This document shows, in pieces, positions 1-2,513 of a stretch of 2,513 nucleotides of DNA. Source of the DNA: Candidatus Hydrogenedentota bacterium (GTDB taxonomy: Bacteria > Hydrogenedentota > Hydrogenedentia > Hydrogenedentales > GCA-2746185); contig JAYGCN010000071.1 in the NCBI GenBank assembly GCA_046583315.1, forward strand, positions 1 through 2,513. Reading direction: 5' to 3'. How positions within the stretch are numbered: position 1 is the stretch's first letter; each line of letters opens with the position of its first letter. The position numbers were made by a program.

Positions 1-2513
1 TAATTGATTTCATGGCCCCGCACATGCGCCCGGACCCGATGGGGTTACACTATCCCGTCACCAGTCTCTATCTCGACAACGACCGCCTCTCCATGTTCTG
101 GAGCTCGGAGACCCGGGAGAAAAATCGTTACAAATTGCGCCTGCGCAGCTACGACGATCACCCGAATACGCCGGTCTATGCCGAGGTCAAACGGCGATTG
201 GATCGCGTCATTAAGAAAACCCGCGTACCGATTAAGCGAGAAAGTATTCCTCTGCTCTTGAGTGGCTGCGGCGCGGATCAGGAGTGCCTCGTTGAAACCA
301 CGAACCAGGCCCATCTTGCCGATCTCCATTACTTTTGCGAATTGCAGGCGCAGTTTCAGGCCATGCCCTGCGCAACCGTCCGCTATCAGCGCGAGGCCTA
401 CATGAGCAACGAAGACGCTCTACTACGCATCACCTTTGATCGCGATCTGTCATTTCTCCCCTCACCCGAATACGAGGAAAGCCTTTGGAAATCAGATGCC
501 TTCTGGCACCATCTTCACCAAGTTCCGGTAGTGATGGAAGTGAAATTTACCGATACTTATCCGCATTGGGTCACCTTGCTCATTCAACGCTTCAATCTTG
601 AGCGCACGTCCCTCGCAAAATACGTCGAGTGCGTACGCACGATGCAACAGGAGCAACACATATTGCATAATCCACGGGAGTTACTGATTTAATGGGCGAA
701 ATATTCGATAATCTGGGTCTGGGCAGTGGCGGCATATCGTCACTCCCGATTTACGACGCGGGAATGGGCCTGTTACTCGCCTTTATTCTCGGTCAGGTCG
801 CCGCGTGGCTCTACATCTACACCCACGAAGGCCTCTCTTATTCGCGCGCCTTCGTCCAATCCATCATCCTGCTCACCGTAATCCTTTCCCTCGGCATGAT
901 GATTATCGGCAACAACATCGCCATCGCCTTCGGGCTCATCGGTGCGCTCGCCGTCATTCGATTCCGCAACATCCTCAAAGATACGCGCGACACCGCCTAC
1001 ATATTCTTCACACTCGTAACCGGACTCGCCACCGGCACACAACGCTTCCAACTCGCCATTCTCGGAACCTGTGTATTCACCGCAGTCTCTCTATATCTAC
1101 ACTGGACCCAGTTCGGCAGCCGAAAAACAGGCGATGGATTCATGCGCTTCCGATTGAACCTCGACACCCTCGAAACAGACGCGATACAAACCATCCTCAA
1201 TCGCCACTGCCGCGCAAGTTTCGTCGTCTCACAGCGTTTCCAGGAGCAAGGCGATGCTGAACTCGCCTACCGCCTCGATATGAAAAATCCGCAACAAGCC
1301 GACGATCTGGTTCGGGAAATTCGCGGAATCGAAGGCATCTCCAACGTCTCATTCGTATTGCAAGAAGAACAAGGTGAAATATGATCCCGACTGAACCACA
1401 TAGCCCTATCGTGATGCCCTCCCGTCGACGCGGACGTATCCTGCGCCAGCGGCTCGCCCCGTTTACCATCTGGGGAGGCGCCATTGTCATATTCCTGTTG
1501 ATGAATGCACAGTCGGCCCCCTTCGAACACGCCATCGGAATCGTGGAAATCGACGAAGTCATTCTTGCACCTCTTGAAGATGGAACCATTCGAAGCCTCA
1601 ATGCCGATCGCTTCGACACCGTGCAGGAGGGTGACGTCATCGCGATGATGGACGACACCATGATCGTCGCAGAACTCACCATCGAAGAGGCAAAACTCGG
1701 CCAGATTCGAGCCGAACTCGAGGTGGAGCGCAATCGCCTTGAGAACGATGTCGAACAGAACGAAACGGATCAGTTGGATGACCTGCGGCGCTATCGTCTC
1801 GATGAGGAAAAAGCCCATCTGGAACATCTGGAGCTGAGCGTCAATATCGAAGCGGACCGCGTAAAGCTCGAACGCTTTCAGATCGAAATGGATCGGCAGA
1901 AAAATCTCGTTACTCAAAAGATCGGTGACGTGAGTACCTACGACGACATTCGACTTCGGCATCAAGAGCTCGCGAAAGAACTGGATTTCAACGCACAGGC
2001 GCTACGGATCGCGAAACGAAACGCGGACACGTCAACGGCGCGTCGCATCGAACGCGAAGACCAACTCTCATCACCGGCTCGCAATACCTTGCTCTATTTG
2101 GAGCCCTATCTACAGGAACTCAAGGTGCAAGAGGCGCGCCGTGAAGAAATCCAGCAGGAACGCCTCGCGCTGATGCTCCGCGCACCCATCAGCGGCCAAA
2201 TCGCACAAGTCTTCTATGGTCCCGGCGAAACCATCCTCTCGGGAACACCCTTATTGACGATTCAGAGCAACAATGCCCGTCGTGTCATCGCCTACGTCAA
2301 CGAAAAAGTTGCCTCCACCATTCAACCCGGCACCGAAGTTCAGCTTCGCTCTCAGGCCAGACCCCAAATTGTCGCGAGCGCCAAAATCCTGCGATCCGGT
2401 TCCGCACTGGAAGAACTGCCTTCACGCATCTGGTCCACACCCATCATCGCGCAATGGGGCTATCCCGTTTTAATCGGCGACATCCCGCCCGACGTGTTCC
2501 TGCCCGGCGAAAC

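What a model noticed while it worked through the whole genome (the two positions that open the first line are those of the whole stretch)
3..2511. Vtc4-type polyphosphate polymerase domain with a DUF4956 membrane partner in a genome that has no PPK1, PPK2 or PPX
Overlapping genes g03944 (VTC/TTM tunnel domain, cut by the contig start) and g03945 (DUF4956: five predicted membrane helices plus an ACT-like C-terminal domain, the build of MgtC) are followed by an overlapping HlyD-type adaptor gene, while the whole assembly has no PPK1, PPK2 or Ppx-GppA gene. I propose that the pair is a membrane-tethered bacterial counterpart of the eukaryotic Vtc4 enzyme: a tunnel polymerase that makes polyphosphate from ATP under the control of an MgtC-like subunit. 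That would be a third, so far unproven, route of polyphosphate synthesis in bacteria, present as a gene pair in about one bacterial species in six.
Evidence so far: Pfam VTC E 1.7e-33 (HMM 27-234 of 235), DUF4956 E 3e-13; start/stop overlaps at 692 and 1381-1384. AF2 of g03944 with 37 sequences: pLDDT 93, pTM 0.88; Foldseek PDB ranks 1-10 are all yeast Vtc4/Vtc2 polyphosphate-polymerase tunnel domains or VTC cryo-EM chains (E 2e-10 to 1e-7, TM to query 0.59-0.74), other TTM enzymes (YgiF, CYTH cyclases, ThTPase) only from E 8e-5. Invariant in 37 sequences: R42,K44,R46,R48,E61,K63,R65,K72,R74,R130,R142,D146,E179,K181, the alternating basic/acidic pattern of a triphosphate tunnel. DUF4956 is the better conserved partner (mean column identity 69% v. 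42%; calls 138,139); its model (pLDDT 73) has helices 17-139 then a beta-alpha-beta-beta-alpha-beta domain t [...]
(Added by a program. Inside this text positions count along the whole contig: contig position 1 is position 1 of the stretch shown here. "Call 12" and the like, gene names such as g00115 and contig names such as C1 are that model's own, and its searches are not shown. The text may have been shortened before it was handed on; [...] marks where a part breaks off. The agent that wrote the report below was given it as the finding of a first reader that could run no searches.)

Follow-up and report, generated by a model that had tools for sequence, protein, structure and literature searches.

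The report
Bacterial Vtc4-like polyphosphate export module
Three tightly packed genes pair a bacterial look-alike of the yeast polyphosphate-making enzyme with a membrane protein and its own export adaptor, which points to an untested machine that makes a phosphate polymer and passes it out through the cell envelope, rather than a replacement for the usual storage enzyme.

Summary
The three overlapping genes are real. The tunnel domain keeps the yeast Vtc4 catalytic residues (R264, R266, E426, K458 equivalents). It has lost two of the three glutamates that hydrolytic TTM enzymes use for their second metal, so Vtc4-like chemistry is likely. The 'stand-in for missing PPK' argument fails: in the phylum VTC occurs in 7 of 20 genomes without PPK1 and 16 of 74 with it (p 0.25), and Ppx is found in only 1 of 94. 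What travels with the pair is envelope machinery. The adaptor subfamily occurs in 22 of 23 VTC genomes and 0 of 71 others, and follows DUF4956 in 80 of 80 close loci, with no RND and almost no ABC pump. Secreted CotH kinases are in 22 of 23 VTC genomes. Best reading (0.4): polyphosphate synthesis coupled to export, for use outside the cytoplasm. Against: deleting the VTC gene in Streptococcus intermedius left aggregation intact (PMC12345266). The gene set and its MgtC/ACT build are in print; no activity test was found. The scan found this module before on other DNA (176 notes). Interest 0.58.

The parts
3..692 (+). VTC-family triphosphate tunnel domain, cytoplasmic (no hydrophobic stretch), cut by the contig start so that the first tunnel strand is missing. 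Equivalents of Vtc4 R264/R266 (R46/R48), E279/K281 (E61/K63), K294/R296 (K72/R74), Y359/R361 (Y128/R130), R373/D377 (R142/D146), E426/K428 (E179/K181), K458 (K206)
   Evidence: fold from a full-length relative at 53-55% identity:
692..1384 (+). DUF4956 inner-membrane protein: 4-5 helices (residues about 19-141) with a conserved R90-F91-R92 ... D97/D100 segment, then a C-terminal ACT domain (about 143-229); MgtC-like build, below the MgtC cut-offs
1381..2513 (+). Membrane-fusion (HlyD-like) periplasmic adaptor with one N-terminal membrane anchor (residues 25-43), of a subfamily dedicated to this module; 388 aa in all, ending on contig C169, which overlaps this contig's end by an exact 141 nt
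690..694 (+). TAATG stop/start overlap between VTC and DUF4956 genes (translational coupling, inferred)
1381..1384 (+). ATGA start/stop overlap between DUF4956 and adaptor genes

Best explanation
The trio is an envelope-spanning synthesis-and-export module, working like the yeast VTC complex but built from different membrane parts. (1) The soluble tunnel enzyme transfers the gamma-phosphate of ATP onto a growing phosphate chain, as Vtc4 does (inferred from residues and fold; about 0.65 on its own). (2) It docks on an oligomer of DUF4956 in the inner membrane, which passes the chain out and is tuned through its ACT domain (inferred from gene coupling; no binding shown). (3) The dedicated adaptor carries the product across the periplasm, to a TolC-type channel encoded next door in some lineages or borrowed in this genome (inferred; export-type module about 0.7 on its own). 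(4) The product is used outside the cytoplasm, most plausibly as phosphoryl donor or co-substrate for secreted CotH-family kinases that modify the cell surface, or as a surface polymer (most speculative step). It is not a substitute for PPK1 storage synthesis. Shown here: genes, residues, fold, co-occurrence. Inferred: every biochemical step.
For: Profile of 25 VTC proteins hits Vtc4 at E 1e-22 to 2.5e-16 and Vtc2/3 at 6e-11 to 1.6e-9, nothing else under E 1. Model of a full-length relative (pLDDT 88): Z 18.5-21.9 to VTC-complex tunnel domains, 14.1 or less to other TTM enzymes. Catalytic equivalents invariant in 26 of 26 phylum matches and in every covered position of 76 further ORF matches, bar one R-to-K. 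Two of the three site-2 glutamates of hydrolytic TTMs (YgiF E4, E6, E162) are Arg and Lys, as in Vtc4, and the K458 equivalent that matters for Vtc4 but not for AtTTM3 is invariant. Adaptor subfamily in 22 of 94 phylum genomes, all VTC-positive, 0 of 71 VTC-negative; the one VTC genome without a hit has a short adaptor next to the pair. In the 80 closest named loci: adaptor directly after DUF4956 in 80 of 80, VTC before it in 75, TolC-like gene after it in 24 (plus 1 by Pfam), no RND hit and one ABC ATPase on the other strand. CotH in 22 of 23 VTC genomes v. 15 of 71 others (p 1e-10; about 8e-7 with one genome per genus), within 7 kb in 15 of 23. These CotH proteins align with B. cereus CotH at E 5e-26 with the Lys, Asp and Asp kinase motifs kept in the close relatives. 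This genome holds the N-terminal half of the matching lamin-tail protein (49-51% identity to VTC-adjacent CotH proteins), running off contig C338. The yeast complex couples synthesis to translocation (PMC9911596).
Against: In Streptococcus intermedius the VTC-gene deletion still aggregated and made Pel; only the DUF4956 and cotH deletions lost over 50% aggregation in sputum medium, and their Pel levels moved in opposite directions (PMC12345266 section 20). That does not fit a strict VTC to DUF4956 to CotH chain for that trait. The first tunnel strand keeps a Glu where Vtc4 has Thr198 (25 of 25 complete sequences). DUF4956 has no conserved Lys/Arg inside its helices, only R90/R92/K96 at a helix end, unlike the basic Vtc1/3/4 channel, and its profile finds no VTC membrane subunit in the PDB. 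No TolC gene lies in the locus here; the nearest TolC relative sits in its own ABC operon. CotH lies near only 18 of the 80 wider loci (many are cut short), and 15 of 71 VTC-negative genomes have CotH. More distant loci lack the adaptor (0 of 12 among L032-L043, some short), and VTC is away from DUF4956 in some genomes. The 80 loci are the best-scoring of at least 599 and are related, so they are not independent.
Confidence: 0.4

Rival explanations
1. DUF4956 plus adaptor export ATP or another ready phosphoryl donor for the secreted CotH kinase; the tunnel domain is a nucleotide-binding gate, sensor or accessory and makes little or no polymer.
For: DUF4956 and cotH deletions share a phenotype that the VTC deletion lacks. 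CotH is an ATP-using kinase in Bacillus, and an extracellular kinase is called unexpected in PMC12774918. In Zetaproteobacteria a CotH gene cluster adjoins an ATP-ADP antiporter gene (PMC8250860). DUF4956-adaptor without an adjacent VTC gene in 2 of 80 loci with room upstream.
Against: The full Vtc4 catalytic set, K458 equivalent included, is invariant, which a mere gate would not need; scores favour active Vtc4 over Vtc2/3 in sequence. A TolC-bound adaptor would lose ATP to the medium.
Confidence: 0.2
2. The tunnel enzyme is a Vtc4-like phosphotransferase, but its acceptor is not polyP: it phosphorylates or pyrophosphorylates a glycan, lipid carrier or small molecule that is then exported for surface modification.
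For: Distant loci lie among glycosyltransferase and sugar-nucleotide genes and beside Pel and glycosyltransferase genes in print. Neighbours carry carbohydrate-binding or beta-helix domains. The basic lining differs from Vtc4: R253/K256 are not kept while extra R42, K44, R65 appear.
Against: No PelG in 0 of 94 phylum genomes, and no recurring glycosyltransferase follows the adaptor in 41 downstream ORFs scanned. The tunnel has no extra acceptor domain.
Confidence: 0.15
3. The module runs inward: it takes up external polyphosphate or triphosphate and the tunnel enzyme hydrolyses it or returns its phosphate to ADP.
For: Most characterised TTM enzymes are hydrolases. One acidic-patch Glu is kept. 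The phylum nearly lacks Ppx. A phosphodiesterase-type gene follows the adaptor in 1 locus.
Against: Two of three site-2 ligands needed for hydrolysis are basic. Membrane-fusion adaptors with TolC-type channels are export devices (established knowledge). No link to Ppx loss, which is phylum-wide.
Confidence: 0.12
4. One reading: a membrane-tethered cytoplasmic polyP polymerase under an MgtC-like regulator that stands in for PPK1/PPK2 as the cell's polyP source.
For: Vtc4-type active site. No PPK1/PPK2 in this assembly. Weak enrichment in genomes lacking both kinases: 6 of 13 v. 17 of 81, p 0.08.
Against: 16 of 23 VTC genomes have PPK1. 7 of 13 genomes lacking both kinases show no VTC, among them single-contig G024. 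It does not explain the dedicated adaptor, TolC or CotH links.
Confidence: 0.1

Closest known systems
Yeast VTC complex (Vtc4/Vtc3 or Vtc2/Vtc1; PDB 3g3q, 3g3r, 7ytj, 8i6v; PMC9911596)
   Same: Same tunnel fold and catalytic residues; enzyme placed beside a small membrane protein; synthesis plausibly coupled to membrane crossing.
   Different: Tunnel domain is a separate soluble protein; no SPX domain; membrane partner is DUF4956 with an ACT domain, not the three-helix Vtc1-type unit, and lacks basic residues inside the helices; a periplasmic adaptor is added; one acidic-patch Glu is kept; no activity shown.
cotH / polyphosphate-polymerase / DUF4956 accessory genes of Gram-positive pel loci (PMC7112168; S. 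intermedius SIR_1592-1594, PMC12345266) and C. perfringens NELoc-2 (PMC2879425)
   Same: Same three families; MgtC-like membrane part plus ACT domain already described; role in phosphate metabolism already suggested.
   Different: No pel genes in this phylum (PelG 0 of 94), against the paper's statement that the trio was not found outside pel loci; double-membrane host with a dedicated adaptor; CotH proteins are large and multi-domain (lamin-tail, PKD, Fn3-associated).
MgtC/SapB family
   Same: Membrane helices followed by an ACT-like domain (Z 9.9 and 9.3 to MgtC C-terminal domains, tied with many other ACT domains).
   Different: Far below family cut-offs (13.7 v. 31.4 bits Pfam; 26.4 v. 214 NCBIfam); fixed in an operon with a tunnel enzyme and an adaptor.
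Acidic-patch TTM hydrolases and cyclases (E. coli YgiF, AtTTM3, CyaB; PMC4641920)
   Same: Tunnel fold, site-1 Glu, basic lining.
   Different: Two of three site-2 glutamates are basic; much lower structural scores (Z 14.1 or less).
Tripartite efflux / type I secretion systems
   Same: Membrane-fusion adaptor; TolC-like gene next to it in 24-25 of 80 related loci.
   Different: No ABC or RND pump belongs to the locus; DUF4956 takes that place.

Membership tests
VTC (Vtc4-type) tunnel domain, Pfam PF09359 | Score above the family cut-off | tested here: met
   114 bits v. cut-off 23
VTC (Vtc4-type) tunnel domain, Pfam PF09359 | Closed beta-tunnel closest to Vtc4 | tested here: met
   Model of a full-length relative, not of the cut window protein: Z 21.9, rmsd 2.8, 232 aligned to 3g3r; Foldseek E 9e-17
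VTC (Vtc4-type) tunnel domain, Pfam PF09359 | Catalytic residues R264, R266, E426, K458 of Vtc4 | tested here: met
   R46, R48, E179, K206; numbering counted on chain 8i6v_E and checked; 26 of 26
VTC (Vtc4-type) tunnel domain, Pfam PF09359 | Acidic patch wholly absent, as in Vtc4 | tested here: inconclusive
   Two of three site-2 positions are Arg/Lys; the third is Glu where Vtc4 has Thr198; that strand lies outside the window and was read in relatives
VTC (Vtc4-type) tunnel domain, Pfam PF09359 | Makes polyphosphate from ATP | not testable with these tools
   No assay found in searches
Eukaryotic VTC complex | SPX sensor domain | tested here: not met
   No SPX match; full-length relatives begin within about 30 residues of the first strand
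Eukaryotic VTC complex | Three-helix Vtc1-type membrane unit with basic residues lining the pore | tested here: not met
   No such Pfam match; DUF4956 profile finds no VTC chain in the PDB sequences; no conserved Lys/Arg inside the helices
Eukaryotic VTC complex | Oligomeric membrane channel coupled to the enzyme | not testable with these tools
   Needs structure or transport assay
Acidic-patch TTM hydrolases (YgiF, AtTTM3) | Three glutamates forming metal site 2 | tested here: not met
   One of three kept
MgtC/SapB | Family score above cut-off | tested here: not met
   Pfam 13.7 v. 31.4 bits; NCBIfam 26.4 v. 214
MgtC/SapB | Membrane domain plus C-terminal ACT-like domain | tested here: met
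   ACT match is generic
MgtC/SapB | Acts on F1Fo ATP synthase or PhoR | not testable with these tools
   Function cited in PMC12345266 for Salmonella
Pel accessory set (cotH, polyP polymerase, DUF4956) | VTC, DUF4956 and CotH genes together | tested here: inconclusive
   VTC and DUF4956 adjacent here; the upstream side is cut. CotH adjacent in 15 of 23 phylum genomes; a matching N-terminal half on C338 suggests the same here
Pel accessory set (cotH, polyP polymerase, DUF4956) | Contiguous with pel genes | tested here: not met
   PelG in 0 of 94 genomes, this one included
Tripartite efflux / type I secretion | Membrane-fusion adaptor | tested here: met
Tripartite efflux / type I secretion | ABC or RND inner-membrane pump in the locus | tested here: not met
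   Next gene here is a NUDIX hydrolase; 0 RND and 1 opposite-strand ABC hit in 80 loci, with 7-39 contigs hit in the own-genome control; MFS pumps not searched except by Pfam of 41 downstream ORFs
Tripartite efflux / type I secretion | TolC-type outer-membrane channel | tested here: inconclusive
   Not in this locus; six TolC-like genes elsewhere; adjacent in 24-25 of 80 related loci

The most novel reading that the evidence does not exclude
Bacteria have a widespread, uncharacterised counterpart of the eukaryotic VTC polymerase-translocase: a tunnel enzyme makes polyphosphate from ATP and threads it through a DUF4956 pore and a dedicated adaptor (and TolC) to the cell exterior, where it serves as the phosphoryl donor for secreted CotH kinases. 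This would be a PPK-independent route of bacterial polyP synthesis, a polyP secretion system, an answer to how extracellular bacterial kinases are fuelled, and a likely relative of the ancestor of Vtc4.
Probability: 0.25. Interest if true: 0.88.

Novelty: new variant of a known kind. Interest (0 to 1): 0.58.

Why it matters
Reviews treat VTC-type polymerases as eukaryotic and PPK1/PPK2 as the bacterial route (passages of PMC10657179 and PMC12526157). A 2026 preprint reports extracellular polyP in Bacillus cereus without PPK1 or PPK2, showing that unknown routes exist, though it states that B. cereus has no VTC4 homologue (PMC13484657), so this module does not explain that case. If the module makes and exports polyP, it gives bacteria a synthesis-coupled secretion system and a possible energy source for the many secreted CotH kinases whose activity outside the cell is unexplained. 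The test is cheap: the three families occur in laboratory organisms (C. glutamicum, B. thetaiotaomicron, M. acetivorans; controls). This locus adds one clean fact: in this phylum the adaptor subfamily is found only with VTC.

Tried and rejected
Structure of DUF4956 was predicted without an alignment (pLDDT 59); only its ACT part gave matches, so the fold of the membrane part remains untested. A four-copy prediction of the DUF4956 membrane part gave no verdict (score 0.14, mark 0.42); it is no evidence either way. The ESM Atlas search of the membrane part gave only hits under 0.8. Searches for longer, fused forms of DUF4956 and VTC found none; the tool calls this weak evidence. A single VTC sequence found no PDB relative; only the profile did. 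The upstream neighbour could not be recovered: no contig overlaps the start of C314, an exact-pattern scan of public genomes found nothing, and laid runs gave only a short loose end. No RNA holder was listed. Contamination of C314 rejected on composition and its exact 141-nt link to C169. An assembly gap as the cause of missing PPK1 is not excluded, but the genes that flank ppk1 in one same-family genome lie mid-contig here without it. The C210 TolC gene as dedicated partner rejected: it is in its own ABC operon. An OprO/P porin neighbour, named in an earlier scan note, was not seen in the few loci checked from another phylum; this was a small sample. Paper searches found no biochemical test of a bacterial VTC protein and no description of the VTC-DUF4956-adaptor set; the library lacks most subscription journals. 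Figures and supplements of PMC12345266 (Fig. 5, S6, S7) and PMC7112168 (S4, S5) were not seen and may bear on the size of the VTC-deletion effect.
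Full report
1. Observation. The window is the whole of contig C314 of a 4.65 Mb assembly. It holds three + strand genes: 3-692 (open at the start), 692-1384 and 1381 to the end, with TAATG and ATGA overlaps. Pfam gives VTC (E 8e-33), DUF4956 (1.3e-12; MgtC 0.08, under cut-off) and HlyD-type adaptor domains. The contig matches the genome in composition and overlaps contig C169 by an exact 141 nt, the commonest overlap in this assembly (108 of 128 listed links). The adaptor ends there at 388 aa and is followed by a NUDIX hydrolase gene, not by a pump or channel. In one of four laid public runs a contig extends gene 1 upstream, so the gene is cut, not short. The runs laid are marine metagenomes. 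The closest named relatives of the DUF4956 protein (53-64% identity) are mostly titled Hydrogenedentota, so the genome probably lies in or near that phylum (inference). PPK1, PPK2 and Ppx were not found by Pfam or tblastn, at 96.7% completeness.

2. The enzyme. A profile of 25 VTC proteins hits yeast Vtc4 at E 1e-22 and Vtc2/3 at 6e-11 to 1.6e-9. Counting on the full-length chain in that alignment, window R46/R48, E179, K181 and K206 correspond to Vtc4 R264/R266, E426, K428 and K458; the numbering agrees with the residues named in PMC9911596 (passages) and PMC4641920 (sections 19 and 21 read whole). These positions are invariant in 26 of 26 phylum matches. PMC4641920 gives the test that separates polymerase from hydrolase: hydrolases bind a second, catalytic metal with three glutamates (YgiF E4, E6, E162), which Vtc4 lacks, and K458 matters for Vtc4 but not for AtTTM3. 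In the bacterial family the first and third of these are Arg and Lys, as in Vtc4; the second stays Glu where Vtc4 has Thr198 (25 of 25 complete sequences; this strand is outside the window). A model of a full-length relative (pLDDT 88) scores Z 18.5-21.9 against VTC-complex tunnels and 14.1 or less against other TTM enzymes (Foldseek agrees). Vtc2 and Vtc3 score as high in structure, so the fold alone does not show activity; the residues make it likely.

3. Is it a stand-in for PPK? In 94 phylum genomes of at least 90% completeness, VTC was found in 23, PPK1 in 74, PPK2 in 75, Ppx-GppA in 1 and CotH in 37. VTC is in 7 of 20 genomes without PPK1 and 16 of 74 with it (p 0.25; about 0.16 with one genome per genus). 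Among 13 genomes lacking both kinases 6 have VTC, against 17 of 81 (p 0.08; 0.15 without this genome). The lack of Ppx is a phylum trait. A same-genus genome has PPK1 and no DUF4956 hit with this query (84% complete). The absence argument is therefore weak.

4. What does travel with it. DUF4956 is adjacent to VTC in 25 of 26 phylum matches; the exception is at a contig end. The adaptor's subfamily (E up to 1e-15, a threshold I set; at most 20 candidates scored per genome) occurs in 22 of 94 genomes, all VTC-positive, and in 0 of 71 VTC-negative ones. In the 80 best-scoring of at least 599 named loci, the adaptor follows DUF4956 in 80, VTC precedes it in 75 (3 of the 5 misses are cut by contig ends), a TolC-like gene follows in 24 by my profile and 1 more by Pfam, and CotH is near in 18. 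No RND and one opposite-strand ABC ATPase were found in these loci. CotH is in 22 of 23 VTC genomes of the phylum and 15 of 71 others, within 7 kb of VTC in 15 of 23, from 7 genera. These are large proteins with lamin-tail, PKD and Fn3-associated domains, most with signal-like N-termini by eye, and kinase motifs that align with B. cereus CotH. This genome has one full CotH gene mid-contig on C232 and, on C338, the N-terminal half of a lamin-tail protein 49-51% identical to the VTC-adjacent CotH proteins of the closest loci, running off the contig. It may lie just upstream of this window (inference). More distant loci have VTC, DUF4956 and often CotH among glycosylation genes without the adaptor.

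5. Mechanism. An adaptor that exists only with this pair, and has no pump of its own, implies that DUF4956 is the inner-membrane component and that something crosses the envelope outward. With a Vtc4-like enzyme coupled to it, the simplest cargo is polyphosphate, as in the yeast complex. Secreted CotH kinases are the most frequent further partner and need a phosphoryl donor outside the cytoplasm. I give this reading 0.4. Results against it: in S. intermedius the VTC-gene deletion still aggregated while the DUF4956 and cotH deletions lost over half, with opposite effects on Pel level (PMC12345266, section 20 read whole; figures not seen); DUF4956 lacks basic residues within its helices; no TolC gene is linked here; CotH is not always near. 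Rivals: ATP or other donor export with VTC as accessory (0.2), phosphotransfer to a glycan or lipid acceptor (0.15), uptake and breakdown (0.12), PPK substitute (0.1).

6. Known relatives. The cotH, polyP-polymerase and DUF4956 set is in print as Pel accessory genes (PMC7112168, passages; PMC12345266, passages) and as part of C. perfringens NELoc-2 (PMC2879425, passages). PMC12345266 already describes DUF4956 as MgtC-like with an ACT domain and says the trio was not found outside pel loci; this phylum has the trio with no PelG in 94 genomes. Other papers seen as passages only: PMC10657179, PMC12526157, PMC10434189, PMC10503014, PMC8250860, PMC12774918; PMC13484657 as abstract and passages. It works like the VTC complex in its enzyme, but is not a member: no SPX, no Vtc1-type membrane unit. 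It is not MgtC by score and not a classical tripartite pump. That adaptors with TolC export rather than import is established knowledge, not tested here.

7. Novelty and verdict. The families and their pairing are known and annotated; no activity test and no account of the adaptor-bearing form turned up in ten paper searches. This scan has noted the module on other DNA many times (176 notes; two look-alike trios); those notes are unchecked and are not counted as support. My export-and-CotH reading was written before the first look-up; the TolC lead came from it and was then tested. Verdict: real, new variant of a known kind, mechanism inferred, interest 0.58; the boldest reading has probability 0.25 and would merit 0.88.

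Noticed in passing
window 2373-2513 and L044 (G000:C169) 1-141: Exact 141-nt overlap joins the two contigs; the adaptor ends on C169 and is followed by a NUDIX hydrolase gene and, on the other strand, molybdopterin-synthesis-like genes (named by eye).
   Followed up: yes
L089 (G000:C338) 2-1480, minus strand: N-terminal half of a signal-bearing lamin-tail protein, 49-51% identical to VTC-adjacent CotH proteins of the closest relatives, running off the contig; may lie upstream of this window across a gap.
   Followed up: partly
L140 2513-4092: The C-terminal part of the VTC domain runs in frame, without a stop, through a Pro/Thr/Ala repeat linker into DUF4956, with a frameshift earlier in VTC: a possible fusion, or an assembly error in a low-coverage contig.
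   Followed up: partly
phylum search: Ppx-GppA is found in only 1 of 94 genomes although 74 have PPK1: how this phylum degrades polyP is open.
   Followed up: no
G024: A single-contig genome of the phylum shows no PPK1, PPK2 or VTC match, but has CotH.
   Followed up: no
L079, L080, L053, L054: Two genomes carry a second, divergent copy in the order DUF4956 then VTC, without adaptor; in one it faces a CotH gene.
   Followed up: partly
L189 924-4028: Two tandem VTC genes followed by an MFS transporter gene and no DUF4956 on a 4.2 kb contig.
   Followed up: no
L187 1796-10084: Complete order CotH, DUF4956, long adaptor with extra C-terminal domain, TolC-like channel, VTC, lamin-tail protein in another phylum.
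   Followed up: partly
L190 2-4539: VTC, DUF4956, a possible outer-membrane barrel and a Cthe_2159 carbohydrate-binding protein in a row.
   Followed up: no
L192, L193 v. L124, L134: In two Verrucomicrobiota genomes VTC lies away from the DUF4956-adaptor pair.
   Followed up: partly
L032, L033, L040: Distant VTC-DUF4956-CotH sets sit inside sugar-nucleotide and glycosyltransferase gene clusters, without adaptor.
   Followed up: partly
structure row 3: An Atlas cluster of related adaptors (709 aa) carries a phytase-like domain in 18% of members.
   Followed up: no
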